DNA of 64,000 nt from Candidatus Aminicenantes bacterium (GCA_011772475.1 WVZK01000086.1:4406-68405), one strand, 5' to 3'. Positions 963 to 57,875 are shown, numbered from the stretch's first letter. Notes: generated by a model from the sequence alone, not told the origin. A program made the numbers and translations.

Positions 963-2984
963 ATGAATAACGTTAAAGAACATTTATGTGATGATGATCC
1001 TGCTAAGGGCCATCCTGATGTCAGAACGAAGCTCAAAGATGTGTCTTATTTTTTTCTCGGTAATGGACACATTCAGGCTGCTGTTCAAATCGCTCCTTCC
1101 GGGGAAGGAACACCCATAGGCCTATTGATCATGAATCCGGAGCATCTGGGGAAAAAGCGAGAAGCTTTAACCTTTGATCCAGATTCCGGACTGGAAAACA
1201 CTATGATCCGCATCATCTCTGCGCCGACCGCTAAAACCACAGGAACCAGAGCTCTTGAAGCTGGTTGGCTTGAGGGATATGAAATCCCTGTTGCCCAGAT
1301 CATATGGCGGGGTGGTAATTTCCAAGTCGCTGAGTACTTTTACTGCCCGAACTTATCTCATCCCGAGATTATGCGCGAGGTTCGCCTAAGAAACATAAGC
1401 AACCTTACAATTAAGGCTCGCCTGAAAACAGGAGTTCTTGATAAAACTATTGATGAGGAATTCTATTTACAACCTGAAGGAATAAAAATAGTATTACTCC
1501 GTTATACTTTGAATAGTTCAGGGAAACATATTACTCTTGATTTGGTGCCGAAAGGGGGAATAGGCCGTAAAGCCCTTCAGTATTGGAAAGAGAAAGCTTG
1601 TGCCTCGTTTGGTTCGCCTATCTTGGATCATTTTTTTACCGCATCACAGTTTCAATTGCCTGCAGTTGTCTCGAAGTTTGGAAAAGTAGATGGTAATATC
1701 TGGCAGCATAACCGTGAACGGGCTAGGGATCAGGCGATGGTGGCTGTGGGTTTGACAATAACAGGCCACTATGAGATTGCTTACAGGATACTCGACCGCA
1801 TGATTGAAGAATTTGTGACCAAGAAAGGGGATATCACAGATTCCGAAAAGGCGCGAGGTTCAGACGAGATAGATTTAGATCAGAATGGATCGCTTCTCTT
1901 TGCCTTGAAAAACTATGTTCTCTGGACTGACTCCTATGAAATAGTTACAAAACACTGGAACAAAATTGTAGCTGCTGCCGAGTTTCCTCTAGCTGGTGCT
2001 TTTGTTCATAGCCGCTCTGGCTTATTAGCCAACAGAAAGGAGTACTGGGGGCGACACCAGACTCATGGGATTGTAAAAGGGATGGAGTTAGCCCATCAAT
2101 TGTTTGCTGTCCTAGGGCTTTCTGCGGCTTCCACCATTGCCTCACTTATCTCCCGAAAATCTGAAGCGTCACACTGGAAACATAAAGCAGAACGGATAAT
2201 GAACGCCACCTTAGACGAAGCTCAATACGGCCTGGTTGATGCTCGTGGGTTCATCAAAAGGCGCGGTATCGATGGGGTAATTCAGGAAATTGTCAAGCCT
2301 CTGCCTAAAGCTCAATTTCCAGAAGGATCCCCATTATCTTTGAAGGGTGAGCATCGCCTCAACCCTGATGCTACATCTGTTCTACCCATCGCTATGGGCA
2401 TTATATCTCCAGATTCTCCTCTGGCATCATTGACATTGGATAGTGTCGAGAAACTTTGGAATCAAGCTTGGAAGGATGGAGGCTACGGGCGATATGATAT
2501 AAGTTCAGAACCTGATTCTCCTGGCTCCTGGCCTATCGCCTCCTTATTTGTTGCCCGTTCTTATGCTGAAACTGGAAATTTTGATAAAATGTGGAGAACG
2601 TTAGAGTGGCTTAATTCAGCACCTGGCGCTTTGTCTGGTTCATGGTTTGAATTTTACGGACAGCGTTTAGATCCGCGATTTTCTCAGGAAGGTATTGCAC
2701 CCTGGATTTGGGCAGAAATGCTAATCCTGCTGATTCACCATATCATAGGGATTCAGCCCGACGTAGACCATCTCCGGATAAGGCCAAAATTGGTCCCTGG
2801 AATAGAAAAAATCACCGCATCTTTCCCGCTGAGAGATAGAAAGATAAATATCGAAATTAAGAGTGGTCGCAAAAAGAAATCTTATGGCTTTAGTTCGGAC
2901 GGGAAAATCATACAATCATCAGAAAAGGAAGCCTATATTTCCTATCCCGAAAAAGACATTTGGGTTGAAGCTTCTCTGCCTTAG
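963..2984 (+). CDS. Glycoside hydrolase family 15-like (alpha/alpha)6-barrel protein
   Basis: 673-aa ORF. The motifs WQHNRERARDQAMV, GGYGRYDISSEPDSPGSWPIASLF and APWIWAEMLILL resemble glucoamylase/glucodextranase-type GH15 catalytic domains. The family call is from memory of motifs only. Confidence 0.5.
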   Translation: MNNVKEHLCDDDPAKGHPDVRTKLKDVSYFFLGNGHIQAAVQIAPSGEGTPIGLLIMNPEHLGKKREALTFDPDSGLENTMIRIISAPTAKTTGTRALEAGWLEGYEIPVAQIIWRGGNFQVAEYFYCPNLSHPEIMREVRLRNISNLTIKARLKTGVLDKTIDEEFYLQPEGIKIVLLRYTLNSSGKHITLDLVPKGGIGRKALQYWKEKACASFGSPILDHFFTASQFQLPAVVSKFGKVDGNIWQHNRERARDQAMVAVGLTITGHYEIAYRILDRMIEEFVTKKGDITDSEKARGSDEIDLDQNGSLLFALKNYVLWTDSYEIVTKHWNKIVAAAEFPLAGAFVHSRSGLLANRKEYWGRHQTHGIVKGMELAHQLFAVLGLSAASTIASLISRKSEASHWKHKAERIMNATLDEAQYGLVDARGFIKRRGIDGVIQEIVKPLPKAQFPEGSPLSLKGEHRLNPDATSVLPIAMGIISPDSPLASLTLDSVEKLWNQAWKDGGYGRYDISSEPDSPGSWPIASLFVARSYAETGNFDKMWRTLEWLNSAPGALSGSWFEFYGQRLDPRFSQEGIAPWIWAEMLILLIHHIIGIQPDVDHLRIRPKLVPGIEKITASFPLRDRKINIEIKSGRKKKSYGFSSDGKIIQSSEKEAYISYPEKDIWVEASLP

Positions 2985-4865: not shown

Positions 4866-5141
4866 TTATGTTTGCTCTTCTATTTTACTGGTGTTTTCTT
4901 CTTTTTTAGCTTTTAATTTTTCTTCGAGTTCTTTGATCTTGAGGATGAGTGTTTCTTTTTCTTTTTTCTTCATCCTTTTTAGAATTCTAACAACCACTCC
5001 CACAATACAAGCTATAATTAGTGTGTTGATAATAGCAGAAACTGAGTATGGCGACTTCATTTGCATTGTGAAAAGGATATCCAACTGCGCTAAGAAGGAT
5101 AGAATTACCAAAACAAGCAGTATCAAAACCCACCAGAGCAT
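4866..5141 (-). CDS. Small membrane protein with two TM segments and a K/E-rich coiled-coil tail
   Basis: MLWWVLILLVLVILSFLAQL ... IINTLIIACIVGVVVRIL, followed by KRMKKKEKETLILKIKELEEKLKAKKEE. GGAGAG lies 5 nt before the ATG. It has its own promoter at 5209-5236. The overlapping + ORF 4849..5163 is less protein-like. Confidence 0.5.
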   Translation of the reverse strand: MLWWVLILLVLVILSFLAQLDILFTMQMKSPYSVSAIINTLIIACIVGVVVRILKRMKKKEKETLILKIKELEEKLKAKKEENTSKIEEQT

Positions 5142-5208
5142 TTGGCACTCTCCTTCAGGGTAATGAAAATTCCCTTCTCGAGTTTAAATGCAAAAATTTC
5201 TCGTATAG

Positions 5209-5236
5209 CTTATAGCAAAGGAAAACCTGAAGTCAA
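5209..5236 (-). promoter_or_regulatory. Sigma70-type promoter (diverged module copy): TTGACT-N16-TATAAG
   Basis: The reverse strand reads TTGACT TCAGGTTTTCCTTTGC TATAAG. The spacer resembles module copies A/B/C (TTTTCCTkTGC). Confidence 0.4.
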
Positions 5237-5245
5237 GAGAGCATT

Positions 5246-6205
5246 TTATTCAGGAACATACTTGATTTTAAATTTATTAAGTGTCACTCCCTCATCTGCC
5301 CTTGAATAGAGGAAATCGTTACTGTCAATATAAATACAGTGGCTTGAATCAGGCAACGTAAAAGTAGTCAAGTGCTTGCCGCCCGGGCTGAGGACATAGA
5401 CGTCACAGCTTGGATTTTTAGAAAAACTGCCGCCCAAAATGAATAAATTTCCTGAACTATCCAGAGCTATATCTTTGTAGACAAATTTGGTGGGAAGCAC
5501 GAATTGTCCAATTTTTTCTTTTTTGATATCTTTGATGCCCAGCAATTTTTGAGACCATATTTTTATTCCTTCAGGATCAAATTTTTCAATTTTATCTTGG
5601 TAGTTGTAAACAAGATAAAGGTTCCCCTGAGAATCAAGATCAAAGTTCACCACATCAGTCAGAAGACGTGATTTTTTGTCAGAGTACTGGAGCTCGCGTT
5701 TGATCTTTCCTTTTGAGTTAAGGATGAAAATCATCCCTGCTTTAGCCGTGGAGACGGTGGTAACTGCAATCTCGTCGTCTTCGAGAACTTTCAAATCGTA
5801 AACAGGTACTGAAACTGAAATGCCGTGGCTATAATTTAAATCTTTATCAAAAACCTGAATGCCGGATTTGAACTGATCAGTGACATAAAGAAGCTCGCTG
5901 GAGATTCCTAAATACCTTGGAGCTAAGAATTCTCCCGGGCCTTGTCCTTTTCGCCCAGTTTTCTTTATGAGATTTCCCTTGTCATCGAATTTTTTCAGTG
6001 AATAATCCATGTTATCAGTAACATAAATATGACCAGTGGAATCAGAGATAACTCCTACCCATTGAAATAAAACATCGTCCTCCAAGCTTCCTATAGATAG
6101 AACCTCTTCAAGTAATATTTTTTGGATATCATTTCCGCCTAAGCCAGGGAGATTCATCTGAAAAGCGATTGATAAAAGATAGACAAGAAATAATGGTTTT
6201 TTCAA
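5246..6205 (-). CDS. Secreted NHL-repeat / six-bladed beta-propeller protein
   Basis: TTG start after AAGGAGG. Signal peptide MKKPLFLVYLLSIAFQ. Repeated units such as GQGPGEFLAPRYLGISSELLYVTD, IYVTDNMDYSLKKFD and LYLVYNYQDKIEKFDPEG are typical of NHL blades. Confidence 0.65.
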   Translation of the reverse strand: MKKPLFLVYLLSIAFQMNLPGLGGNDIQKILLEEVLSIGSLEDDVLFQWVGVISDSTGHIYVTDNMDYSLKKFDDKGNLIKKTGRKGQGPGEFLAPRYLGISSELLYVTDQFKSGIQVFDKDLNYSHGISVSVPVYDLKVLEDDEIAVTTVSTAKAGMIFILNSKGKIKRELQYSDKKSRLLTDVVNFDLDSQGNLYLVYNYQDKIEKFDPEGIKIWSQKLLGIKDIKKEKIGQFVLPTKFVYKDIALDSSGNLFILGGSFSKNPSCDVYVLSPGGKHLTTFTLPDSSHCIYIDSNDFLYSRADEGVTLNKFKIKYVPE

Positions 6206-6262
6206 CTTTTTTGTTTCCTCCTTGGGAATTCGTGATTACCTATGCTTTCATACTGCGAGAGA

Positions 6263-6493
6263 TTAATTTTCAAGGTATTTTCTGCAAAAAATCCAGCCAT
6301 TAACGCAGTAGGCAACATCTGTGTATACCCTAGCGAAAAAGGGGATGTTCAATATCGCGTCGAGCAAACAATTCGAAAGAGCTTTTTCACACCTCCCAGC
6401 CTCCATCGGAGATACATTTACGCTAAAGAATATCGTAATAATGATCAAGATTAGAAATGCTTTTTTTATGTGTTTTTGGATTTGTGAAATCAT
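6263..6493 (-). CDS. Small secreted twin-CX6C peptide (76 aa precursor), paralog of 6570..6857
   Basis: Strong SD (AAAGGAGGG) before the ATG. Signal peptide with cleavage motif MEA|GRC. Mature part is GRCEKALSNC...YCVNGWIFCRKYLEN. It aligns at both ends with the neighbouring ORF. Confidence 0.6.
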   Translation of the reverse strand: MISQIQKHIKKAFLILIIITIFFSVNVSPMEAGRCEKALSNCLLDAILNIPFFARVYTDVAYCVNGWIFCRKYLEN

Positions 6494-6569
6494 GTTTTCC
6501 CTCCTTTAGTCTTTAATTTCCTGTAAAGTTTCTTCTTATAATAGCCCGTGTGCGATGTATGTGAGCTTA

Positions 6570-6857
6570 TCAATATTCATAATAGCGCTTGCAGAAGTGG
6601 TAGCCACCAAGGCACATGGTTGAGTAGGAACCGCCTGCTGCGACCGCGCCGAGCATAGAGCCAAACATGTTGCCTGAAAAAAAGCCAGCGATAGCTCCCA
6701 GCACAGTGGCAATTCCGGCATCGATCATGCAGTTCAATAAAGCTCTTGAGCATTGTCCTGCATTGAGTTGGTCGGGAGCTACAAACATCGTGAAAAGAGA
6801 CATGAATAGAAATCCAGCAATTAATTTTTTGGCATTTTTTCCTCTTAAATTGTTCAT
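6570..6857 (-). CDS. Small secreted twin-CX6C peptide with glycine-zipper core (95 aa precursor)
   Basis: Strong SD (AAAGGAGG). Signal peptide with cleavage motif LNA|GQC. Mature part is GQCSRALLNCMIDAGIATVLGAIAGFFSGNMFGSMLGAVAAGGSYSTMCLGGYHFCKRYYEY. Confidence 0.65.
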   Translation of the reverse strand: MNNLRGKNAKKLIAGFLFMSLFTMFVAPDQLNAGQCSRALLNCMIDAGIATVLGAIAGFFSGNMFGSMLGAVAAGGSYSTMCLGGYHFCKRYYEY

Positions 6858-7063
6858 CCTAATACCTCCTTTAGATTGTTATTATGGCTGACTAAGATTA
6901 TTTAAAAATAATGATATTTAAAGAAGATTTCGTTCGTATTTATTATCGATTGTCTTCTCTTTTCTTTGACGGATATTTGACGAGAAAATCTCACTTTCAA
7001 ACCTTTCCAACTTTTATAGTTTGCGTGACATTGAGGTCAGATCTGTAAAACTTGAATTATAAG

Positions 7064-7100
7064 AAAATTGGGCCAACAAAATGGGGCCAGGCCCCATTTT
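7064..7100. repeat. REP-B element: half copy AAAATTGGGCC plus palindrome AAAATGGGGCC-A-GGCCCCATTTT (terminator-like)
   Basis: Perfect GC-rich inverted repeat at 7078-7100, flanked by an A-tract and a T-tract. It lies about 130 nt downstream of the minus-strand glycosyltransferase stop. The same composite element occurs at 12196-12231 and 57798-57875. Confidence 0.75.
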
Positions 7101-12195: not shown

Positions 12196-12231
12196 AAAAT
12201 GGGGCCGAATAAAATGGGGCCAGGCCCCATT
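12196..12231. repeat. REP-B element (half copy plus full palindrome)
   Basis: AAAATGGGGCC-GAAT-AAAATGGGGCCAGGCCCCATT. Confidence 0.75.
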
Positions 12232-12384
12232 CTTTTTCTTTAATCAGATAACGTTGCCATTTAAGATGAATGGAGGATAATTTTAAAGACAGTATTGAAA
12301 CCGATTTTAATTTTTGTTTTAATTAATCAACTGCATGATGTTAGTGGGAGTTATCAATCATTCTTATTTAAATAGGATAAGGAC

Positions 12385-12861
12385 ATGACAAGAAAAGATA
12401 TATTTAAACTTATATTATGTCTCATAATTTGTCAGTTAGCAGGGTTTGTGGGCTCTTTATTCACATCGCCTTCAATTCCCTCGTGGTATGCTTATCTAAA
12501 TAAGCCATCTTTCACACCACCGAATTGGGTATTCTCCCCGGTATGGATAAGCTTGTTTGTGATTATGGGGATATCTCTGTTTCTTGTATGGCAGAGAACT
12601 CTGCGCCATCCTTATGTAAAATCTGCCTTATTATGGTTTGCTTGCCAGCTGATTTTAAACATGCTTTGGTCAATCGTATTTTTCGGCCTTAAGTCCCCGT
12701 TTTTTGCTTTTATAGAGATTATTTTGCTGTGGATAGCAATCCTGATAACAATTATTAAGTTCTTTAGAGTCTCAAGATTGGCAGGAGTACTTCTTATTCC
12801 TTATATCCTTTGGGTAAGTTTTGCTGCAGTCCTTAATTTCTCCATATGGAATCTTAATTAA
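12385..12861 (+). CDS. tspO: TspO/MBR tryptophan-rich sensory protein
   Basis: PSWYAYLNKPSFTPPNWVFSPVWISLFVIMG with five TM segments is the diagnostic TspO N-terminal signature. Confidence 0.9.
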   Translation: MTRKDIFKLILCLIICQLAGFVGSLFTSPSIPSWYAYLNKPSFTPPNWVFSPVWISLFVIMGISLFLVWQRTLRHPYVKSALLWFACQLILNMLWSIVFFGLKSPFFAFIEIILLWIAILITIIKFFRVSRLAGVLLIPYILWVSFAAVLNFSIWNLN

Positions 12862-12925
12862 TAAATCCAAGCCGAGTATTTATTCGGATTTTTATATAAA
12901 TAGAAAAGCTGTAAGGAGGATAAAA

Positions 12926-15031
12926 ATGGTTCAGAAGTCTTTTAGGAAATTTTTCTTCGTTATTTTAATTTTTGCTTTTCTCCTTTCTCTTCCAGTTTCA
13001 GCGGTAGATAAAAAGGAAGGGCCCAAATCTAAAAAGCCCCCTGTTATCTCCGCAAAAGACACTTTGCGGATAAACCGAGTTTCTAATCCTCGCCTTTCTC
13101 CAGATGGCCAATGGGTACTTTACTCTAAGGCGATTCGAGATATGGAAGACAAAGATATGGAGAGCACCACGCATGTCTGGCGAGTGCGAGTTGACGGCAA
13201 GCAAAGAAGACAGATGACCTATGGTTCTGAGAGCTGCACCTCTCCTTCATGGTTTCCCGATGGGAAAAAGATCGCGTTTCTAAGCTCCCGCGGCAAAGCC
13301 GAAAGCTCCAGAGATAGACGAGAAGATGCCAGCGAACGCCCTCGTAATCAAATATATTCTATGTATCTTGACGGAGGAGAGGCCTGGCAAGTAACTGAGC
13401 ATAAAGAAGGTATTCAATCTTACGAAATTTCACCGGACTCAACCCGTATCCTTTTCACTGCTAGAGATCCCTTAACCGAAGAAGAAGAGAAAAGAAAAAA
13501 AGAAAAGGACGATGCTGAGGTTGTAGACGAGAAGTTTCGGATGAGCCATCTCTGGATTTACGATATAGATAAAAAAGAAGCTACGCAATTTACCAAAGGC
13601 GAATTTACAGTGAGTGATGCTCATTGGTCACCAGATTCTAAGAAAGTCGCCTATGTGACGCAGCCTAATACTAAAGTTGATGAAGATTGGAACAGCGATG
13701 TCTGGCTTATTGACATTGACACCAAAAACTATAAAAAGCTTTACGAAAATCCTGGAAGAGACGCCAGCCCCCGTTGGTCACCTGACGGAAAGACCATTGC
13801 TTTTTCTTCTGAGTCTCACGCTAGCTCAAACACATGGTATGACAAGCTTTATCTTTTTCCAGCGAGCGGCGGCAAACCAAAAATCCTGCTTAAAGATTTT
13901 GATCTCAATTATGGGCCTTCGATCTGGTCTCAAGATGGAAGGCGAATTTACTGGGCGACTGGGGACCGAACAACAGGGAACTTATTTTCGGTTGATATTC
14001 GCACCGGCGATATCAAGAAGATTACACCTCCCCGAGGATCTAATTCCCAGTGGAGGTTATCAAACGATGGGAAACGCTGGACGTGGTACCATTCTCCATC
14101 AAACTGGCCAGGAGAAATTTACGCTGCAGATTTGGATCTCAAGAATCCAGTTCGCCTAACAGATGCCAATCCCTGGCTTCGAGAAGAGAAAATAAAGCTC
14201 GGGAAAGTGGAGACAATTAAATGGAAAAACAGCGACGGCCAGTGGATTGAAGGAGTGCTCACCTGGCCTGTTGATTATAAGCAAGGCGAGAAATACCCCC
14301 TCATTCTCAATCCTCATGGAGGACCAAGCTCGGCAAGGATCGAATCGTTCAGCTCGTCAAATCAATTCTTTGCTGGCAATGGCTTTATGGTCCTCCAGCC
14401 GAACTTCCGAGGAAGCTCGAATTATGGTCAGGAATTCCTCAACGCTAATCGAGGCTATTGGGGGGTAAGGGATTATGATGACTGCATGACTGGAGTAGAC
14501 TTCTGCGTTGAGAAAGGCTGGGCTGATCCTGATCGGCTTATCTGTTACGGCTGGAGCTACGGCGGATACATGAGCTTCTGGATTGTCACCCAGACTGACC
14601 GTTTTAAGGCTGTTTCTCCAGGTGCGGGGCTTGCGAACCTCTACAGCATGTACAGTACTACAGACATACCTCGTTATCTCGCTTGGTTTTTCGGGACTCC
14701 TTGGGATTATGAAGACATGTACGAGAAGCTTTCTCCCATTCGTCACGTAAAGAAAGTAAAGAGCCCGGTACTTATAATGCATGGAGCAATTGACGCAAGG
14801 GTCCCTCCTGAGCAGTCGGTCGAGTTTTACCAGGCGCTTCGTGACCTGGGAAAAGATGTCACATTTGTGCGCTTCCCGAGGGAAAGGCATGGAATCAGGG
14901 AACCGCGGCATCAAATAGACCGTCTCCGAAGATACCTTTTTTTCTTCGCAGAACATGTGAACCTGATACCCGTTAGTGAGAAGAAAGAAGAAAAGGTGCC
15001 CAAAAAGGAAGAGAAGAAAAAAGATAAATAA
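12926..15031 (+). CDS. S9 family serine peptidase (acylaminoacyl-peptidase/DPP-like) with N-terminal beta-propeller
   Basis: ATG at 12926 after AAGGAGGA, with signal peptide. Propeller repeats LSPDGQWVLY, ISPDSTRILF, WSPDSKKVAY and WSPDGKTIAF. Catalytic GWSYGGYM, plus later D and H motifs (HGAIDARV, ERHGI). Confidence 0.9.
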   Translation: MVQKSFRKFFFVILIFAFLLSLPVSAVDKKEGPKSKKPPVISAKDTLRINRVSNPRLSPDGQWVLYSKAIRDMEDKDMESTTHVWRVRVDGKQRRQMTYGSESCTSPSWFPDGKKIAFLSSRGKAESSRDRREDASERPRNQIYSMYLDGGEAWQVTEHKEGIQSYEISPDSTRILFTARDPLTEEEEKRKKEKDDAEVVDEKFRMSHLWIYDIDKKEATQFTKGEFTVSDAHWSPDSKKVAYVTQPNTKVDEDWNSDVWLIDIDTKNYKKLYENPGRDASPRWSPDGKTIAFSSESHASSNTWYDKLYLFPASGGKPKILLKDFDLNYGPSIWSQDGRRIYWATGDRTTGNLFSVDIRTGDIKKITPPRGSNSQWRLSNDGKRWTWYHSPSNWPGEIYAADLDLKNPVRLTDANPWLREEKIKLGKVETIKWKNSDGQWIEGVLTWPVDYKQGEKYPLILNPHGGPSSARIESFSSSNQFFAGNGFMVLQPNFRGSSNYGQEFLNANRGYWGVRDYDDCMTGVDFCVEKGWADPDRLICYGWSYGGYMSFWIVTQTDRFKAVSPGAGLANLYSMYSTTDIPRYLAWFFGTPWDYEDMYEKLSPIRHVKKVKSPVLIMHGAIDARVPPEQSVEFYQALRDLGKDVTFVRFPRERHGIREPRHQIDRLRRYLFFFAEHVNLIPVSEKKEEKVPKKEEKKKDK

Positions 15032-16770: not shown

Positions 16771-19551
16771 CTATTCGAGCTCTACGTTAGTTGACCCTCC
16801 ATAATAAATCCCGTTAAACAGAAATTTAAAGGTCCCATGAGGTTGGGCCCGTCGAGTTATCTCTGGTCCGTACAGGAAAAGCTTGCCTTGACCCACATCA
16901 GCCTCAATTACGGCGAGACCTCCATGCAGATAATGCTTCCCCCAGGCCCAGCCACTCCGTAGAGGGTTCTTATTTTCAAACCAGGCTACTGATCGAATCC
17001 TTTCCTGAGCGGTGTCTGGTTTTAACCGAAAGACAGGACTGTTGTTGAAAGCCACATCCACTTTCTCTGACAAACCGTAGGCCAGAGGATTGGTGTTATC
17101 AACGCTAACTTGAAGAATCGAGCCGGGTACGAAATATTTTTCCCTGGGCAAGCGTTTCTCCTTCCCATCTTTAAGCTTTTCGACCAAGGCATTGGCAATA
17201 GGGAGACCGGCATGGTATCCGATGTTAGTGGAGTCACTGATAGCCAGCAGAGTGCCGCCATTTTTGATGAATTCCAGTAAATTTGGAACCGTTTTAGCCA
17301 CGGTTACCTTACCGAGTCGTTTGCGGAATTCTGGAGGTATGCTTTCTGGTTTGGGCTGGGGGGATGAGCGCCAGCGGCGATTCTCGTCAGGTTGGTCGCT
17401 GAGCGGAATAGCGCCGTGGACAAAGATTAGGACATCGTATTTATTATTCAGGTTTCCAGCATCAAGAGTGGCGGGATAGACAACTTTAAAAGGGAACTCG
17501 AACTGCTCCAGCAGCCATCGCACCCAGCCCGAGTCCATGGATCCTCCGTATTGATCCCATAATCCAACGCGTAATGGTTGCAAACGGAGCGCTTCTCCTG
17601 AGGGCTTAGAACTAATGCCTTCAAAATTCAATCCGATCTCCTTGGCCATATTCTCAAGTCTGCGCAAAGTGGAGGACTTTGCTGGAATATAAATCGTCCC
17701 AGCAGGGTATGTCTTTTCCTTATGCTGAAAAGCCTTTTTTAACCAGTACACCTCTTCTTTTCTTTGAAGGAGGCGGTTGATGGCGATAAAGGCATCATTG
17801 ACTCTATGGTCTAAAAGAAAGCCAACAGCATTCGTGCTCTGGGTAACTTTTCCAGGAGGGCGATGGGCAAGATCCTCAATTTTCTCGAAGGGGCCTTCGA
17901 CACTTTCCAAAATTCGGTCGAATTCCACTCCCATTTGAAAAGCCAAAGTCCAACCAGCATTATCGTAGGGTGGAATAGGTGCTCCACCTGGATAAGGGAT
18001 ATCATCTGGGTGGTTTTGAGGTTCAAACATAGAGAGGATGTGGGGACGGAAGGCTTGAGCGGTCTTTACGATATAAGAACCCGAAGGATAGGACTTACCG
18101 CCCGCGCTGAAGGATTCAGTTGCTCTTAGGATAGTTATTCCATTCTTTATGAGAGCATTCACGAATTTGGTTGCGGTTAAAAAGTCGGGCTGGTCCGAGC
18201 TAAGAATATAGACTCGGGGATCACGCTCAGCTGGATCGAGCAGCATCTCATAATATTTGCGCGGATACCCTCGGTTTCGTCCGGCACCTACTCGCTGGGC
18301 CTTATCTTTTTTGATTGCGTCTTCGACTGCTGCAATCCTATGCGGACGGATAGTCCAGTGGTCGCGGCTTCCCCGTTCTATTGAGTTTTTTCCCATGAGA
18401 TAGATGTTGTACAGGAAATCCTCACGGTATTTAGAGGCCAGGTCGAGAATTGCCCTATCAGCTGTGATCATGTACTCGATTGATTGGCGGAAATGCCACT
18501 TCTGAGGAGCAATCGGAGCGGGAAGATCGTTTTTAGGAAGTTGTCTATCGGGAAGGAACGGAATTTCCACCGGCGTGGGATTTCCGATAGCTTCTGTTAG
18601 AATCCCGATCATGTTGTGAAAATAAGTAGATGTCCGCAGTCCGCCGTTCCACCAGGTCGAATATCTTGCTCCCGATCTCATTGTTGCCCCTGGCTTTCCC
18701 TCAGCAACGAAACGATTATGCATAGCAGCTCCAACAAGCTCGATTCCCAACGGAACAAGCGGATCATAGTAGTAGTTGAACGGGTCACGGAAGGGAGGTG
18801 CAAATAAGACTGTTCCTGCAGGACCAGTTTGATGCTGATTGTATACGATTTGAGGAAACCACTCGTGGTATAACACCCGGGTAAGGGCTTCTGTTTCGGG
18901 CTGAGTCACCATGTAAAAATCACGATTGTTATCGTGGCCGATGTATTTTTGGTACAGACGAGGTATGTCTCTCGTGGACCGCTTGGTTGGTTCCTTTTCT
19001 CGCATATACCAGTCTGAGACCAATTCCATTCCATCTGGATTTGAGGGGACGGCAAGCAAAATGACATCATCCAGGATCCTCAGCGTCTCAGGATCATTTC
19101 GGCTCGCCATTTGATACACAAGCTCTATCAAATGCTGTGCTCCCAATACTTCAGTTCCGTGTAAGCCCCCATCAATCCAGACAACCGCTCGTCCTTCAGA
19201 AGCAAGTTCTCGAGCTTCGCTATCAGTAAGTCCTTCAGCTAAGGCTAGTTTCTTTGAGATCTCTTTATAACGATCGAGTTTCCTTTGATTGTCTGGGGAA
19301 GTTATAACGGCCATGAACATCGGATGTTTCTCAGCTGTAATGCCGATTCCGGCAAGCGAAACCCGCTTGGATTCAAGAGCAATTTTTTTCAAATAAGCTA
19401 TGAATTGTGTATAGTTGGCCAGATAGTAATCGTCTCCCACATTAAAACCAAAGTGTTCTTTGGGCGTTGTGATTTTACGCTGGGCCAATAAAGGAATGAC
19501 CAATAGCGCTATTAAAATAAAAACTAAAATAAGACTCTTATTCTTGCCCAT
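16771..19551 (-). CDS. Large secreted M14 family zinc carboxypeptidase
   Basis: Start taken at ATG 19551 (GGGAGGA SD, signal peptide MGKNKSLILVFILIALLVIPLLA). GGLHGTEVLG (HxxE), HDNNRDF and YNQHQTG motifs. Long C-terminal extension. Confidence 0.85.
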   Translation of the reverse strand: MGKNKSLILVFILIALLVIPLLAQRKITTPKEHFGFNVGDDYYLANYTQFIAYLKKIALESKRVSLAGIGITAEKHPMFMAVITSPDNQRKLDRYKEISKKLALAEGLTDSEARELASEGRAVVWIDGGLHGTEVLGAQHLIELVYQMASRNDPETLRILDDVILLAVPSNPDGMELVSDWYMREKEPTKRSTRDIPRLYQKYIGHDNNRDFYMVTQPETEALTRVLYHEWFPQIVYNQHQTGPAGTVLFAPPFRDPFNYYYDPLVPLGIELVGAAMHNRFVAEGKPGATMRSGARYSTWWNGGLRTSTYFHNMIGILTEAIGNPTPVEIPFLPDRQLPKNDLPAPIAPQKWHFRQSIEYMITADRAILDLASKYREDFLYNIYLMGKNSIERGSRDHWTIRPHRIAAVEDAIKKDKAQRVGAGRNRGYPRKYYEMLLDPAERDPRVYILSSDQPDFLTATKFVNALIKNGITILRATESFSAGGKSYPSGSYIVKTAQAFRPHILSMFEPQNHPDDIPYPGGAPIPPYDNAGWTLAFQMGVEFDRILESVEGPFEKIEDLAHRPPGKVTQSTNAVGFLLDHRVNDAFIAINRLLQRKEEVYWLKKAFQHKEKTYPAGTIYIPAKSSTLRRLENMAKEIGLNFEGISSKPSGEALRLQPLRVGLWDQYGGSMDSGWVRWLLEQFEFPFKVVYPATLDAGNLNNKYDVLIFVHGAIPLSDQPDENRRWRSSPQPKPESIPPEFRKRLGKVTVAKTVPNLLEFIKNGGTLLAISDSTNIGYHAGLPIANALVEKLKDGKEKRLPREKYFVPGSILQVSVDNTNPLAYGLSEKVDVAFNNSPVFRLKPDTAQERIRSVAWFENKNPLRSGWAWGKHYLHGGLAVIEADVGQGKLFLYGPEITRRAQPHGTFKFLFNGIYYGGSTNVELE

Positions 19552-19668
19552 AAATTCCTCCCTTTTCCCAATCAGGGAAAGAAGTTTGTTTTTCTGTCTG
19601 CCACAGCTTTCCGCTCCCATGACGACCATTGAAATTTCTTATATAAGTAATAGATAAATTGAATCCCT

Positions 19669-19803: not shown

Positions 19804-21714
19804 ATGCGTACACGAGTTATATCGTTATTGGTAGTCGCATCCATCTTTATTTTTGGATGCGTTCCCCTGGAGGAAATGCCTCGCCTTATCCCTATGAAAG
19901 ATTTTTTCCGGAATCCGGAAAGTGCTGTATTTGGACTTTCTCCTGATGGAAGCCACCTCGCCTTTTTGAAGCCTTGGGAAAATCGACTAAATGTTCACGT
20001 GCAAAAAATAGGGGAAGATAAAATTACGCGAATCACCGGTGCAACGGAGAGAGATATTGCCGGCTATTATTGGGCGAATAATAATCGCATCGCTTATGTG
20101 CAGGATACTGCAGGTGACGAAAACTTCAGGTTATATGCAGTTAACATTGATGGGTCCGATCTAAAAGAACTCACGCCGTTTGAAAAAGTAAAGGTAGAGC
20201 TAATTGATAAGCTGAAGAATGACGATGAACACATGCTGATTTCGATGAACAAGCGTGATTCTCGTGTGTTTGATGTATATCGTATAAACATCAACTCGGG
20301 CAAGATGAATATGATAGCTCAAAATCCTGGGAATATCATGGGCTGGCATACCGACCATGACGGCAATCTGAGGATAGCCGTGACCACTGATGGTGTTAAC
20401 ACAAGTGTTCTTTACCGTGACTCCGAGAAGGATAAGTTCCAAACTTTGATCACAACCAATTTTAAAGAATCAATGTCGCCTTTGTTCTTCACGTTCGACA
20501 ATAAAAATCTTTACGTTGCTTCCAGCATAGGCCGAGATAAAACAGCTATATATGAATACGATATCAAAAATAAAAAACATGCAAAATTATTATATGAACA
20601 CCCTGAAGTTGATGTTGATGGTTTATTAAAATCGGATAAACGGAAGAAGATTACAGGCGTTACCTATATCGTCGATAAAAGACATTATCATTTCTTTGAT
20701 GATGAGAGAAAGACATTACAGGAAGGACTTGAGAAGCGGCTTCCAGGGTATGAAGTTGTGATCGTCAGCCGAAGTAAAGATGAGAGGAAAGTACTGGTTA
20801 GAACTTACAGCGACAGATCGCTTGGTTCCTATTATTACTTTAACCGAGACACGAATGACTTCAGAAAGCTCGTGGATATCAGTCCTTGGTTGAATGAAGA
20901 TGAGCTGGCTGAGATGAAGCCAATCACTTACAAATCACGGGATGGATTAACAATCCATGGATATTTAACAGTGCCCAAAGGCGCGAAACCTAAGAACCTT
21001 CCTGTTGTCGTCAATCCTCATGGCGGTCCCTGGGACAGAGATACATGGGGTTATAGGTCTCATGTTCAATTTCTTGCTAATCGAGGCTATGCTGTTTTAC
21101 AGATGAATTTCAGGACTTCTACAGGCTATGGACGTAAGTTCTGGGAAGCCGGCTTTAAACAATCGGGACTTGCCATCCAGGATGATATAACCGACGGAGT
21201 AAAATGGTTGATTAACCAAGGAATTGCCGACCCAAAACGTGTCGGAATTTACGGCGGTTCTTACGGAGGTTACTGCGTTCTAGCAGGGCTAGCATTCACT
21301 CCGGATTTATATGCTGCTGGTGTGGATTACGTCGGAATCTCTAGCTTTTTTACAATATTAAAGACCATTCCGCCTTACTGGGAACCTATGTTAGAGATGA
21401 TGTACGAAATGGTCGGCCATCCAGAAAAAGACAAGGAATTGTTCGAGAAAGTTTCGCCTCTATTTCACGCTGATAAAATTAAGGCTCCCTTGTTTGTCGC
21501 TCAAGGGGCCAACGATCCTAGGGTGAATAAACAGGAATCAGATCAGATTGTAGAAGCACTTAGAAAACGAGGTATTGATGTCGAATATATGGTAAAAGAA
21601 GATGAAGGGCATGGCTTCCGCAACGAGGAAAATAGGTTTGATTTCTATAGGGCAATGGAAAAATTCCTAGGCAAACACCTCGGAGGCAGAGTGGAGACAG
21701 AAACCAACGATTAA
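19804..21714 (+). CDS. S9 family serine peptidase (prolyl oligopeptidase/DPP family)
   Basis: AAAGGAGGAG SD. Lipoprotein-like signal (FIFGC). NPHGGPW, catalytic GGSYGGY, GANDPRV and EGHGF. Confidence 0.9.
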   Translation: MRTRVISLLVVASIFIFGCVPLEEMPRLIPMKDFFRNPESAVFGLSPDGSHLAFLKPWENRLNVHVQKIGEDKITRITGATERDIAGYYWANNNRIAYVQDTAGDENFRLYAVNIDGSDLKELTPFEKVKVELIDKLKNDDEHMLISMNKRDSRVFDVYRININSGKMNMIAQNPGNIMGWHTDHDGNLRIAVTTDGVNTSVLYRDSEKDKFQTLITTNFKESMSPLFFTFDNKNLYVASSIGRDKTAIYEYDIKNKKHAKLLYEHPEVDVDGLLKSDKRKKITGVTYIVDKRHYHFFDDERKTLQEGLEKRLPGYEVVIVSRSKDERKVLVRTYSDRSLGSYYYFNRDTNDFRKLVDISPWLNEDELAEMKPITYKSRDGLTIHGYLTVPKGAKPKNLPVVVNPHGGPWDRDTWGYRSHVQFLANRGYAVLQMNFRTSTGYGRKFWEAGFKQSGLAIQDDITDGVKWLINQGIADPKRVGIYGGSYGGYCVLAGLAFTPDLYAAGVDYVGISSFFTILKTIPPYWEPMLEMMYEMVGHPEKDKELFEKVSPLFHADKIKAPLFVAQGANDPRVNKQESDQIVEALRKRGIDVEYMVKEDEGHGFRNEENRFDFYRAMEKFLGKHLGGRVETETND

Positions 21715-24569: not shown

Positions 24570-24581
24570 TTGGAGGGAAAG

Positions 24582-27500: not shown

Positions 27501-27707
27501 ATTACCTTTGATCCAAACCGTGAGGAACGCTATCTTATTCATCCAAAATATTATTACAGGTTGGCCAAATTATACGAAGAGAAGGGCTGGACCGGGAAAG
27601 CTATAGAACACCACGAGAAATTTCTCCATTTCTGGAAGAATGCTGATGAAGGGCTGCCAGAATTAGTAGATGCAAAAAAACGCCTTGCCGCCCTCAAAGC
27701 CAAGTAA
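24582..27707 (+). CDS. Zinc-ribbon / Hanks-type Ser/Thr kinase / TM / periplasmic domain / TPR sensor protein
   Basis: ATG at 24582 after GGAGGG, 12 nt after the ABM stop. [55 protein letters not shown], one TM segment ([19 protein letters not shown]), [22 protein letters not shown], then multiple TPRs. Confidence 0.9.
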
Positions 27708-57797: not shown

Positions 57798-57875
57798 AAA
57801 AATGGGAGCAAAAAATGGGGCCACAAAAAATGGGGCCAGGCCCCAATAAAAATAAATGGGGCCTGGCCCCATTTT
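57798..57875. repeat. REP-B cluster (partial, half, and two full palindromes in opposite loop orientation)
   Basis: AAAAATGGGAGC, AAAAAATGGGGCC, AAAAAATGGGGCCAGGCCCCA and AAATAAATGGGGCCTGGCCCCATTTT. It lies directly downstream of the M28 gene stop. Confidence 0.8.

What the first reader, a model, noticed from the sequence alone, without database searches (positions are those of the whole stretch)
5246..6857. Tandem paralogous Sec-signal mini-proteins with a twin CX6C frame around a variable (glycine-zipper) core, co-oriented with an NHL beta-propeller
- **The pair:** Two adjacent minus-strand ORFs (6570..6857, 95 aa; 6263..6493, 76 aa) each follow a strong SD (CTAAAGGAGG). Each begins with a basic n-region, a hydrophobic h-region and a small-x-small cleavage motif (LNA|GQC and MEA|GRC).
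- **Conserved frame:** After the predicted cleavage they align at both ends: AG[QR]C-x2-AL-x-NC[ML][IL]DA ... C-x2-G[YW]-x-FC[KR][KR]Y-x-E. That gives two CX6C pairs.
- **Variable core:** The segment between the pairs is 38 aa of GxxxG/AxxxG zipper (GIATVLGAIAGFFSGNMFGSMLGAVAAGG) in one peptide. In the other it is an unrelated 20 aa.
- **Interpretation:** A conserved Cys frame, a variable core and a Sec leader is the layout of disulfide-stapled helical-hairpin, membrane-active peptides (bacteriocin/toxin-like). I do not recognise it as a named family.
- **Neighbourhood:** 57 bp downstream, on the same strand and with no terminator seen, lies a signal-peptide NHL propeller (5246..6205). A small TM plus K/E coiled-coil protein with its own promoter (4866..5141) follows. 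The REP-B hairpin at 7078-7100 insulates the unit from the upstream glycosyltransferase.
Basis: partly seen in the sequence, partly recalled or inferred. Interest (0 to 1): 0.7.

Follow-up and report, generated by a model that had tools for sequence, protein, structure and literature searches.

The report
Stapled hairpin peptide pair with propeller
Two neighbouring small genes in an uncultured sediment bacterium (Aminicenantes) encode exported four-cysteine helical-hairpin peptides from an undescribed family that always sits beside one special NHL propeller gene and usually a thioredoxin-like gene, so this is a new cell-envelope gene cassette whose biological role is still unknown.

Summary

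- **The genes:** pepA (6570-6857) and pepB (6263-6493) are real genes under purifying selection. Each has a Sec-type leader and four invariant cysteines (CX6C...CX6C).
- **The fold:** AlphaFold2 predicts a helix-turn-helix for both. The turn lies at (pepA) or next to (pepB) the mirror point that would bring C1 opposite C4 and C2 opposite C3.
- **The family:** It is small (63 small proteins among 65 hits in 1.84 billion representative proteins). It matches no Pfam, NCBIfam, PADLOC or PHROGs model.
- **The linkage:** In 51 unique loci (GC 27-68%, differing flanks) a long-tip and a short-tip peptide sit directly upstream of one NHL-propeller subfamily. More distant propellers never have them.
- **The fourth gene:** It is usually a TlpA/StoA-like CxxC protein, often overlapping the propeller gene and once fused to it. 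The window's clade has a 2-TM K/E-rich protein instead.
- **Best reading:** A periplasmic cassette makes a disulfide-stapled, membrane-inserting hairpin pair with help from the propeller and the thioredoxin-like protein.
- **Closest analogue:** The two-peptide bacteriocin gallocin A. Membership fails: the leader is Sec-type, there is no ABC exporter, and no universal immunity gene.

The biological role is unresolved.

The parts
6570..6857 (-). pepA: 95-aa precursor of the long-tip ('A-type') twin-CX6C hairpin mini-protein (stop codon included).
   Evidence: ORF. 32 homologs at 67-100% identity with 4 invariant Cys. Family HMM 1.7e-25. AF2 pLDDT 81 with helices 35-61 and 64-92. dN/dS of the mature part 0.06-0.31.
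6759..6857 (-). pepA leader (residues 1-33: MNNLRGKNAKK / LIAGFLFMSLFTMFVA / PDQLNA). Predicted Sec signal peptide, cleaved around LNA|GQC.
   Evidence: n/h/c architecture. AF2 helix 7-26. dN/dS 0.4-1.2 against 0.06-0.31 for the mature part. The cleavage site is inferred; SignalP was not available.
6573..6758 (-). pepA mature part (residues 34-95). C36/C43 lie on helix 1 and C82/C89 on helix 2. The 38-aa Gly-zipper tip has its turn at G62-N63.
   Evidence: Mirror rule 36+89 = 43+82 = 62+63 = 125. The AF2 turn is at 62-63. Small residues A39 and G85 lie between the Cys of each helix.
6865..6874 (-). Shine-Dalgarno CTAAAGGAGG of pepA.
   Evidence: Read directly from the sequence.
6263..6493 (-). 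pepB: 76-aa precursor of the short-tip ('B-type') twin-CX6C hairpin mini-protein (stop codon included).
   Evidence: ORF. 22 homologs at 68-92% identity. Family HMM 4.1e-25. AF2 pLDDT 86 with helices 34-47 and 53-74. dN/dS of the mature part 0.09-0.52.
6398..6493 (-). pepB leader (residues 1-32). Predicted Sec signal peptide, cleaved around MEA|GRC.
   Evidence: The cleavage site is inferred.
6266..6397 (-). pepB mature part (residues 33-76). C35/C42 and C63/C70, with a 20-aa amphipathic tip and a turn at N-I-P.
6500..6509 (-). Shine-Dalgarno CTAAAGGAGG of pepB.
   Evidence: Read directly from the sequence.
5246..6205 (-). Exported six-bladed NHL beta-propeller (319 aa, TTG start). It is the invariant operon partner of the peptide pair.
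   Evidence: Pfam DUF5128 1.2e-11, above its cut-off. TRIM-NHL structures 4e-17. The subfamily alignment has about 30 invariant residues. Peptide pairs sit upstream in all subfamily loci with enough DNA.
6217..6223 (-). Shine-Dalgarno AAGGAGG of the propeller gene.
   Evidence: Read directly from the sequence.
4866..5141 (-). 91-aa protein with two predicted TM helices and a K/E-rich tail. It is the clade-specific fourth gene of the cassette, taking the place held by the Trx-like or membrane-protein genes in other lineages.
   Evidence: ORF. Conserved orthologs of 85-91 aa directly downstream of the propeller in L001, L003-L009 and L028; L011 has only a relative about 2.8 kb further downstream. 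dN/dS 0.08-0.22. Only sub-threshold family hits. A TTGACT-16-TATAAG promoter-like site lies in the 104-nt gap (read; not flagged).
7078..7100 (.). Perfect palindrome AAAATGGGGCC-N-GGCCCCATTTT between the upstream glycosyltransferase gene and the cassette. It is a repeated REP-like or terminator-like element.
   Evidence: four copies in the window, 0 expected.

Best explanation
pepA and pepB encode a fixed pair of Sec-exported mini-proteins, roughly 61 and 44 aa when mature.

**Proposed fold.** In the periplasm each folds into an antiparallel alpha-helical hairpin. Two inter-helix disulfides (C1-C4 and C2-C3) close its open end. A small residue (Ala or Gly) between the Cys of each helix lets the helices pack closely. 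This leaves a hydrophobic Gly/Ala-rich tip whose length changes in whole helical turns.

**Proposed partners.**
- The pair works with a dedicated periplasmic NHL propeller. I infer that the propeller binds the conserved stapled base, as chaperone, receptor or partner.
- In most lineages there is also a translationally coupled TlpA/StoA-like CxxC thioredoxin-fold protein. I infer that it forms or proof-reads the staples.
- The window's clade has lost that gene from the locus. It may be supplied in trans; one closed genome carries both cassette types.

**Proposed action.** The tips then insert into a membrane. My leading specific reading of the role is a two-component membrane-active peptide pair that works like gallocin A-type disulfide-stapled hairpin bacteriocins.

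**Shown versus inferred.**
- Shown: gene reality, paralogy, leader-like N-termini, predicted hairpins, strict gene linkage, and the accessory gene's weak but consistent thioredoxin-fold hits with an invariant CxxC.
- Inferred: disulfide formation, propeller binding, membrane insertion and antagonistic function.
For: **Genes and fold**
- Real genes and paralogs.
- Leaders: plus the dN/dS contrast between leader and mature part.
- Hairpin: AF2 pLDDT 81 and 86, with the turn at the mirror point of the Cys pairs in pepA and adjacent to it in pepB.
- In the long-tip peptides the Pro/Gly turn tracks the midpoint as the core length varies; in the short-tip peptides it lies before the midpoint. Core lengths cluster at 22 / 29-30 / 37-39 / 44 (long tip) and 13-15 / 20-21 / 27 (short tip), which is one helical turn per arm.
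- Family-wide invariants are C36, C43, C82, G85 and C89. A39, D46 and Y92 are at least 90% conserved.

**Pair and linkage**
- Fixed long-tip-first, short-tip-second order in 41/49 and 47/49 loci.
- Peptide side: 10 of 10 look-ups have the propeller directly downstream, in different genomic contexts.
- Propeller side: 22 of 26 propeller relatives at 36% identity or more, with upstream DNA available, show both peptides. The exceptions are explained.
- 0 of 37 relatives below 36% identity have the peptides.
- Two paralogous cassettes occur in one closed genome (L007 and L013).

**Thioredoxin-like accessory**
- 21 of 37 loci have it immediately downstream. Eight have overlapping stop/start codons, and one is fused to the propeller.
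- It has an invariant CxxC and a near-invariant F-P loop. The best PDB hits are StoA (E=0.0017), YkuV and ResA.

**Precedents**
- Gallocin A: two mature peptides of 42 and 60 aa, disulfide-stabilised helical hairpins, a requirement for a thioredoxin-domain protein, and a hairpin-like small immunity peptide (PMC10100652).
- NHL and Trx-like domains forming one functional cleft in NHLRC2/SOQ1 (PMC6107167).
Against:
- **The redox direction is uncertain.** The hosts are anaerobes, and TlpA/ResA/StoA-type proteins are usually reductants.
- **Missing bacteriocin components.** No exporter across an outer membrane, no leader protease and no regulator is conserved in the cassette.
- **No consistent immunity candidate.** A small membrane protein is present in only a minority of loci.
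- **No sign of an arms race.** The mature peptides are under purifying selection, and the window-type cassette sits at a conserved chromosomal position among its close relatives.
- **Short tips.** Many family members have arms of about 9-10 residues, too short to span a bilayer.
- **No structural match.** Foldseek found no significant neighbour; all hits have E of at least 1.
- **Weak thioredoxin assignment.** It rests on marginal E-values, and Pfam found nothing.
Confidence: 0.4

Rival explanations
1. Envelope-intrinsic complex. A and B are small membrane-embedded anchor or accessory subunits of a periplasmic NHL(-thioredoxin) protein, a split NHLRC2/SOQ1-like redox or repair module. They tether it to the membrane. 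The disulfides are purely structural, and the real substrate is something else.
For: - Strict stoichiometry-like operon linkage with translational coupling, and one propeller-Trx fusion.
- Purifying selection, a conserved chromosomal position for the window-type cassette, and 1-2 copies per genome.
- No exporter or universal immunity gene.
- The best Foldseek neighbours, although not significant, are single-hairpin subunits of membrane complexes.
- NHL plus Trx forms a conserved functional cleft in NHLRC2/SOQ1.
Against: - The window clade and several other loci keep A, B and the propeller under selection without any Trx-like gene in the cassette. The core function therefore does not need a cis-encoded thioredoxin.
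- Tips of 9-10 residues per arm are poor membrane anchors.
- The propeller has its own signal peptide.
- The propeller and the Trx-like protein show no specific sequence affinity to NHLRC2/SOQ1, and the active-site motif differs: CxPC-like, not CC(I/V)NC.
Confidence: 0.3
2. Redox- or metal-handling mini-proteins. The four cysteines are functional rather than structural: Cu/Zn/Fe binding, or a thiol-disulfide relay. The TlpA-like partner keeps them reduced, as TlpA does for ScoI/CoxB.
For: - The four Cys are the only universally invariant side chains besides one Gly.
- The accessory protein resembles reductant-type thioredoxins: StoA, ResA and YkuV.
- The hosts live in anoxic sediments.
Against: - CX6C places the two Cys of one helix about two turns apart. 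All four cannot share one metal, and no His or Met ligands are conserved.
- The conserved small residues between the Cys, and the mirror symmetry, fit inter-helix staples.
- The cassette has no metal transporter, chaperone or CcdA/DsbD gene.
Confidence: 0.12
3. Ordinary unrelated small secreted or membrane proteins that merely happen to lie next to an NHL gene, with linkage due to local synteny among close relatives.
For: The first hits were all close relatives that share the wider synteny: GT2, cold-shock protein, DUF350, amidohydrolase.
Against: The linkage persists in loci with unrelated flanks, across GC 27-68%, down to 36% propeller identity, and in a second paralogous locus of one genome. 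It is absent from all 37 more distant propeller loci.
Confidence: 0.02

Closest known systems
Gallocin A-type class IIb two-peptide bacteriocins (GllA1/GllA2 of Streptococcus gallolyticus; PMC10100652)
   Same: - Two adjacent small genes.
- Mature peptides of about 42 and 60 aa (here about 44 and 61).
- Few charged residues.
- Predicted alpha-helical hairpins closed by intramolecular disulfide(s) between Cys near the N and C termini.
- A co-encoded extracytoplasmic thioredoxin-domain protein is needed.
- A small hairpin-like membrane protein lies downstream (here only in some loci).
   Different: - Sec-type leader instead of a double-glycine leader.
- No ABC/C39 exporter.
- Presumed diderm host.
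- Two disulfides (twin CX6C) instead of one.
- An obligatory NHL propeller partner with no counterpart in gallocin loci.
- No sequence similarity (no Pfam hit).
- No universal immunity gene.
Disulfide-stapled helix-loop-helix mini-proteins: mitochondrial twin CX9C (CHCH) and twin CX3C proteins, and plant alpha-hairpinins (CX3C...CX3C). Recalled from established knowledge; CHCH is also mentioned in PMC12114033.
   Same: - Two antiparallel helices, each carrying a CXnC pair.
- The outer and inner Cys pairs form two parallel staples.
- They fold in an oxidising compartment with help from a dedicated oxidoreductase.
   Different: - The spacing is 6, a heptad repeat, not 3 or 9.
- The loop end is a long hydrophobic Gly/Ala-rich tip of variable, quantised length.
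- Bacterial, with Sec export.
- No sequence relationship.
NHLRC2 / SOQ1 (thioredoxin-like domain plus NHL propeller; PMC6107167; bioRxiv 10.1101/2021.03.16.435614)
   Same: - An NHL six-bladed propeller is functionally coupled to a thioredoxin-fold CxxC-type domain in an extracytoplasmic or oxidising compartment.
- One locus here (L041) even fuses the two.
   Different: - Here they are separate genes, and in the fusion the order is NHL then Trx.
- The active site is C-x-[PS]-C-like rather than CC(I/V)NC.
- There is no specific sequence affinity.
- NHLRC2 homologs were reported to have no conserved operon partners, whereas this propeller always has the two peptides.
Glycine-zipper membrane hairpins (Pfam Gly-zipper_Omp; SlyB/Pcp-type lipoproteins)
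   Same: GxxxGxxxG runs in both arms of pepA's tip, forming a hydrophobic helical hairpin in the cell envelope.
   Different: - The hit is below threshold: 14 bits against a cut-off of 25, and in only 1 of 63 family members.
- No lipobox.
- Cys staples are present.
- Most family members are not Gly-zipper-rich.
Bacteroidetes NVEALA small proteins next to DUF5128/TolB-like six-bladed propellers (recalled from memory of genome annotations; a lead only)
   Same: Proteins of 70-90 aa encoded beside propellers of the same Pfam family (DUF5128).
   Different: - No NVEALA (PF14055) hit for any of 63 members, even at E up to 10.
- The adjacency in Bacteroidetes could not be checked with the tools available.
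- No literature was found.

Membership tests
Class IIb two-peptide bacteriocins (including the gallocin A subgroup) | Two adjacent genes for complementary small peptides | tested here: met
   A long-tip and a short-tip peptide lie in tandem in 51 unique loci, with fixed order in 41/49 and 47/49.
Class IIb two-peptide bacteriocins (including the gallocin A subgroup) | Double-glycine leader processed by a dedicated C39-peptidase ABC exporter | tested here: not met
   The N-termini are Sec-like, with a basic n-region, a hydrophobic h-region and a small -3/-1 site. No ABC or C39 gene appears among the called genes of the 13 loci returned by the 10 look-ups.
Class IIb two-peptide bacteriocins (including the gallocin A subgroup) | Sequence membership (Pfam bacteriocin models such as PF10439) | tested here: not met
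   No bacteriocin family appeared among the families listed for the 63 members at E up to 10; the call lists the 25 most-hit of 46.
Class IIb two-peptide bacteriocins (including the gallocin A subgroup) | Cognate immunity gene in the operon | tested here: inconclusive
   Small membrane proteins follow in some loci: the TM-K/E protein in the window clade, the ~160-aa membrane protein in about 7 loci, and 2-TM 60-aa proteins in L024 and L032. Many cassettes end with the Trx-like gene.
Class IIb two-peptide bacteriocins (including the gallocin A subgroup) | Antimicrobial, membrane-permeabilising activity that needs both peptides | not testable with these tools
   Needs synthesis or expression, followed by assays.
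Twin CXnC disulfide-stapled helical hairpins (CHCH, small Tims, alpha-hairpinins) | Helix-turn-helix with one CXnC per helix, placed so that the Cys face each other | tested here: met
   AF2 helices 35-61/64-92 and 34-47/53-74. The mirror rule holds, and the turn tracks the midpoint across long-tip core lengths of 22-44.
Twin CXnC disulfide-stapled helical hairpins (CHCH, small Tims, alpha-hairpinins) | Canonical spacing (n = 9 or 3) and homology to those families | tested here: not met
   n = 6 in all 63 members. There are no Pfam hits to CHCH or Tim10 families.
Twin CXnC disulfide-stapled helical hairpins (CHCH, small Tims, alpha-hairpinins) | The two disulfides are actually formed | not testable with these tools
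   Model coordinates are not exposed, and there are no biochemical data.
NHL-repeat six-bladed beta-propeller (partner protein) | NHL repeats detectable by sequence, six blades | tested here: met
   TRIM2/3/71 and Thin NHL domains at 4e-17 to 5e-9. Pfam DUF5128 '6-bladed beta-propeller' scores above its cut-off. Blade motifs YVTD / IQVFD / IEKFD / DVYVL / IYID are conserved.
NHLRC2/SOQ1-type Trx-NHL proteins | Trx-like and NHL domains in one polypeptide with a CC(I/V)NC active site | tested here: not met
   They are separate genes except in the L041 fusion, where the order is reversed. The motif is C-x-[PS/x]-C. No NHLRC2 or SOQ1 chain appears among the PDB hits.
TlpA/ResA/StoA-like periplasmic thioredoxin fold (accessory protein, not in this window) | CxxC after a beta-strand, a cis-Pro loop, and profile similarity to the family | tested here: inconclusive
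   Invariant CxxC and a near-invariant F-P. Profile against PDB: StoA E=0.0017, aligning both motifs, then YkuV and ResA at E 0.2-0.8. Pfam and NCBIfam give no hit above threshold.
Glycine-zipper families (PF13488 and relatives) | Pfam model match above the gathering score | tested here: not met
   14.1 bits against a cut-off of 25 for pepA only; 1 of 63 members.
Methylamine dehydrogenase (mau) type: small Cys-rich subunit + propeller + MauD + MauE | Homology of any component to MauA, MauB, MauD or MauE | tested here: not met
   No such Pfam or NCBIfam hits for the peptides, the propeller, the Trx-like protein or the membrane protein.
NVEALA (PF14055) small proteins | NVEALA motif or Pfam match | tested here: not met
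   No hit in 63 members at E up to 10.

The most novel reading that the evidence does not exclude
The twin-CX6C hairpin pair is the dedicated client of a split NHL-propeller/thioredoxin machine. That would make this cassette the first case in which an NHL-Trx module, the same domain pairing as NHLRC2/SOQ1 whose substrates remain unclear, has genetically defined peptide substrates. The products would be a new class of Sec-dependent, doubly stapled, two-component membrane-active peptides in an uncultured diderm lineage. The propeller would act as periplasmic chaperone or immunity factor in place of the usual ABC exporter and immunity set.
Probability: 0.25. Interest if true: 0.75.

Novelty: new variant of a known kind. 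Interest (0 to 1): 0.55.

Why it matters
- **A new family and cassette.** It defines a compact, previously unnamed protein family (twin-CX6C hairpins) and a conserved 3-5 gene cassette confined to Aminicenantes-like sediment bacteria, for which almost no envelope biology is known.
- **If the peptides are membrane-active.** They would extend disulfide-stapled hairpin two-peptide agents, so far a Gram-positive, ABC-exported phenomenon, to Sec export in a presumed diderm, with a new accessory logic.
- **If they are clients or partners of the NHL-thioredoxin pair.** The cassette would offer a genetically simple model for what NHL-Trx modules bind. That question is open for NHLRC2 (human FINCA disease) and plant SOQ1.
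- **Protein design.** The heptad-quantised, doubly stapled hairpin is also a neat natural scaffold.

Tried and rejected
- **Family scans on the peptides.** Pfam, NCBIfam, PADLOC and PHROGs gave nothing above threshold. The only hits were sub-threshold: Gly-zipper_Omp and DUF7670 for pepA.
- **Structure search.** Foldseek of the pepA model against the PDB gave no match with E below 1.
- **NVEALA link.** This was my recollection for Bacteroidetes DUF5128 propellers. There was no HMM hit and no literature, so I kept it only as an untested lead.
- **Methylamine-dehydrogenase-like reading** (small Cys-rich subunit + propeller + MauD/MauE). No homology of any component, and the peptides are hydrophobic helices. 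Rejected.
- **Lipoprotein reading.** C1 is never preceded by a lipobox; the usual context is A-G-x-C. Rejected from the sequences.
- **DsbB/CcdA-like membrane redox-relay reading.** CX6C on one helix cannot form an intrahelical disulfide, and many tips are too short to span a membrane. Rejected as unlikely.
- **Locus search with the peptide alignment.** The search for related loci failed because no stretch was conserved enough. I used the propeller alignment instead.
- **Mobile-element searches.** Viral contigs and plasmids hold no relatives of the subfamily.
- **Thioredoxin-like or membrane-protein gene in this window.** None found.
- **Literature.** Searches for CX6C hairpins and for Aminicenantes with NHL found no description of this family.
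Full report
**1. The observation**

The window comes from a Candidatus Aminicenantes MAG: pepA is 100% identical to GTO16_06490. Both minus-strand ORFs are present at the stated coordinates, 6570..6857 (95 aa) and 6263..6493 (76 aa). Each is preceded by CTAAAGGAGG, 6-7 nt before its ATG.

The two proteins are paralogs. BLASTP gives 29% identity and E=8e-8, confined to the two Cys-bearing ends. A joint alignment of both ortholog sets leaves A33, C36, A39, C43, D46, Y78, C82, G85, F88, C89 and Y92 invariant. Of all six-frame ORFs of at least 40 aa in the window, only these two carry C-x6-C...C-x6-C.

The neighbours are also as described.
- The propeller gene (5246..6205) starts 57 nt after pepB. 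It is a genuine NHL propeller (Pfam DUF5128 1.2e-11; TRIM-NHL structures down to 4e-17).
- The 91-aa TM + K/E ORF (4866..5141) is conserved and under purifying selection.
- No terminator-like site was detected on the minus strand inside the unit.
- The palindrome at 7078-7100 is one of four copies of a repeated element in the window.

**2. Real genes with Sec-like leaders**

pepA has 32 relatives and pepB has 22, at 67-100% identity, with the four Cys conserved apart from one pepB relative (P0034).

Nei-Gojobori dN/dS against orthologous loci is 0.06-0.31 for mature pepA and 0.09-0.52 for mature pepB. For the N-terminal 32-33 residues it is 0.14-1.19. This is the usual signature of a signal peptide followed by a constrained mature domain.

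Across 63 family members:
- 61 have a net-positive n-region;
- all have a strongly hydrophobic 12-residue h-region;
- 62 have a small or aliphatic -3/-1 site 0-9 residues before C1.

C1 is never in a lipobox. SignalP was not available, so the exact cleavage site is inferred.

**3. The fold**

AlphaFold2, run with family alignments, gives these models.
- pepA: pLDDT 81, with helices 7-26 (leader), 35-61 and 64-92.
- pepB: pLDDT 86, with helices 2-25 (leader), 34-47 and 53-74.

In pepA the predicted turn (G62-N63) lies exactly at the mirror point that puts C43 opposite C82 and C36 opposite C89, since 36+89 = 43+82 = 62+63 = 125. It also puts A39 next to G85 and D46 next to Y78. In pepB the mirror point (52/53) falls at the end of the predicted loop.

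In the long-tip peptides the helix-breaking Pro/Gly motif tracks the midpoint of the C2-C3 segment as that segment varies from 22 to 44 residues. In the short-tip peptides it lies before the midpoint. Segment lengths cluster at 22, 29-30, 37-39 and 44 in the long-tip peptides and at 13-15, 20-21 and 27 in the short-tip ones. These steps of about 7 residues equal one helical turn added to each arm.

This supports an antiparallel helical hairpin whose open end can be closed by two inter-helix disulfides. The disulfides themselves are inferred. Foldseek found no significant structural neighbour.

**4. The family**

An exhaustive HMMER search of 1.84 billion representative proteins, using the joint profile, found only 65 hits at E of 1e-3 or better. 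Sixty-three are 63-130-aa proteins; all but one truncated sequence show the same architecture. The other two are repeat artefacts.

Family-wide invariants are the four Cys and G85. A39, D46 and Y92 are at least 90% conserved. None of the 63 members matches any Pfam family above threshold. NCBIfam, PADLOC and PHROGs gave nothing either. Literature searches found no description.

**5. Gene linkage**

From the peptide side, all ten look-ups returned the order peptide - peptide - propeller (317-345 aa). The proteins looked up were P0005, P0026, P0022, P0118, P0094, P0106, P0120, P0066, P0119 and P0089. The flanks differed: GT2/cold-shock, urocanase, sortilin-BNR, HDOD and others.

From the propeller side:
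- GTDB genomes gave 16 loci.
- Metagenomes gave 80 loci.
- Local HMMs for each component found 51 unique peptide-plus-propeller loci, with GC from 27% to 68%.

Among propeller relatives at 36% identity or more with at least 750 nt of upstream DNA, 22 of 26 show both peptides. The other four are explained.
- L046 has the second peptide, interrupted by an N.
- L053 has both peptides, separated from the propeller by an inserted opposite-strand gene.
- L097 and L106 are only partial matches.

Among 37 more distant propeller relatives, none has the peptides. One closed genome (CP070825.1) carries two paralogous cassettes, L007 and L013. The first gene is the long-tip type (core 21-44, with one exception at 16) and the second the short-tip type (core 14-20, with outliers at 24 and 27). 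This points to an ancient duplication and a heteromeric pair.

**6. Accessory genes**

Among 37 loci with at least 700 nt downstream of the propeller, the fourth gene is as follows:

| Fourth gene | Loci |
|---|---|
| ~150-200-aa exported thioredoxin-like protein, immediately downstream | 21 |
| The same protein, but upstream of the peptides | 1 |
| ~160-aa membrane protein only | 2 |
| 85-91-aa TM-K/E protein (window clade) | 7 |
| None detected | 6 |

The thioredoxin-like gene overlaps the propeller's stop codon in eight loci. In L041 it is fused to the propeller through a Pro-rich linker. It has an invariant C-x-x-C after a hydrophobic strand and a near-invariant F-P loop. Its profile hits StoA (E=0.0017, aligning both motifs), then YkuV and ResA. 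Pfam finds nothing, so the TlpA/ResA/StoA-like assignment is probable, not certain.

The window contains no copy of this gene or of the membrane-protein gene. No exporter, protease or regulator is conserved in the cassette, and a small membrane protein is not universal. No viral or plasmid relatives were found.

**7. Interpretation**

These points are shown:
- two real paralogous genes;
- Sec-like leaders;
- predicted hairpins whose geometry fits two staples;
- an obligate association with one NHL-propeller subfamily;
- frequent tight coupling to a CxxC protein that is probably thioredoxin-fold.

These points are inferred:
- the peptides are exported to the periplasm (Aminicenantes/Acidobacteriota are taken to be diderm from general knowledge; this was not tested here);
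- they are stapled by C1-C4 and C2-C3 disulfides, made or edited by the Trx-like protein;
- the propeller binds them through the conserved base;
- they insert their hydrophobic tip into a membrane.

The closest functional precedent is gallocin A. It comprises two peptides of 42 and 60 aa that form disulfide-stabilised helical hairpins. It depends on a thioredoxin-domain surface protein, and its small immunity peptide is also hairpin-like (PMC10100652). A second precedent, for the accessory pair, is the Trx-like/NHL cleft of NHLRC2/SOQ1 (PMC6107167).

Membership in either family fails on defining features.
- Against class IIb bacteriocins: a Sec-type rather than GG leader, no ABC/C39 exporter, and no sequence match.
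- Against NHLRC2/SOQ1: separate genes, a different active-site motif, and no specific similarity.

The main rival is that A and B are permanent small membrane subunits or anchors of an NHL(-Trx) periplasmic enzyme. That fits the purifying selection, the stable chromosomal position of the window-type cassette and the lack of an exporter. It fits less well with cassettes, including this window's, that keep A, B and the propeller without a cis-encoded Trx gene. It also fits poorly with tips too short to anchor.

I put about 0.7 on the structural and mechanistic core (exported, stapled hairpin pair that depends on the propeller). I put about 0.3-0.4 on the membrane-active or antagonistic role, which gives 0.4 for the combined statement.

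**8. Verdict**

It is an unnamed family and an undescribed cassette, best classed as a new variant of known themes: disulfide-stapled hairpin peptide pairs, and NHL-thioredoxin modules. It is moderately interesting now. Its interest would rise if the propeller-peptide interaction or membrane activity were demonstrated.

Noticed in passing
window 7078-7100, 12211-12233, 57827-57849, 57853-57875: A perfect 23-nt palindrome, AAAATGGGGCC[A/T]GGCCCCATTTT, recurs four times (0 expected from shuffles). It is a REP-like or bidirectional terminator-like element. The two copies near 57.8 kb lie in tandem.
   Followed up: partly
L041:864-2486: In one metagenomic locus the NHL propeller and the thioredoxin-like protein form a single 540-aa ORF joined by a Pro-rich linker. 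This is a Rosetta-stone-type fusion, seen in a single contig and not checked for frameshift.
   Followed up: partly
L013, L016-L019, L023, L108, L109 (upstream of the cassette): The thioredoxin-type cassettes repeatedly lie just downstream of a urocanase (hutU) gene. This is a second conserved chromosomal position, distinct from the window's GT2/amidohydrolase position.
   Followed up: no
L018:5965-7167, L023:7213-8415, L110:2681-3889: In one sub-lineage the cassette is followed by a Peptidase_S8 (subtilisin-like) gene (Pfam hit in L023 and L110; the 400-aa L018 ORF was not scanned), and in L023 also by a TPR/CHAT protein. The link could be lineage synteny or functional.
   Followed up: no
L053:1245-3428 (minus strand): A 727-aa protein resembling a beta-propeller-repeat protein, on the opposite strand, is inserted between pepB and the NHL gene. 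This is the only locus where the trio is interrupted.
   Followed up: partly
L020:37-2204: A paralogous propeller (about 40% identity) in a genome that also has a full cassette (L017) is followed by a 372-aa protein with a retropepsin-like aspartyl protease domain. The contig lacks the upstream DNA, so the presence of peptides is unknown.
   Followed up: no
L025:7789-10276: IS66/rve transposase fragments and a second DUF5128-like propeller gene lie just downstream of one cassette. This is the only mobile-element association seen.
   Followed up: no
window 12821-15031, 16771-19629, 19804-21714, 28745-30517, 30591-32354, 36317-38470: The window is dense in predicted peptidases: three S9, two tandem C69 and one M14.
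   Followed up: no
window 24570-27707 and 60661-63435: Two large Ser/Thr protein kinase plus TPR proteins (1045 and 924 aa).
   Followed up: no
window 963-2984: A 673-aa ORF has no Pfam hit at E up to 1e-5. An ORF of the same length occupies the corresponding position in locus L006.
   Followed up: no
window 5142-5245: The 104-nt gap before the TM-K/E gene contains TTGACT-16 nt-TATAAG.
   Followed up: no
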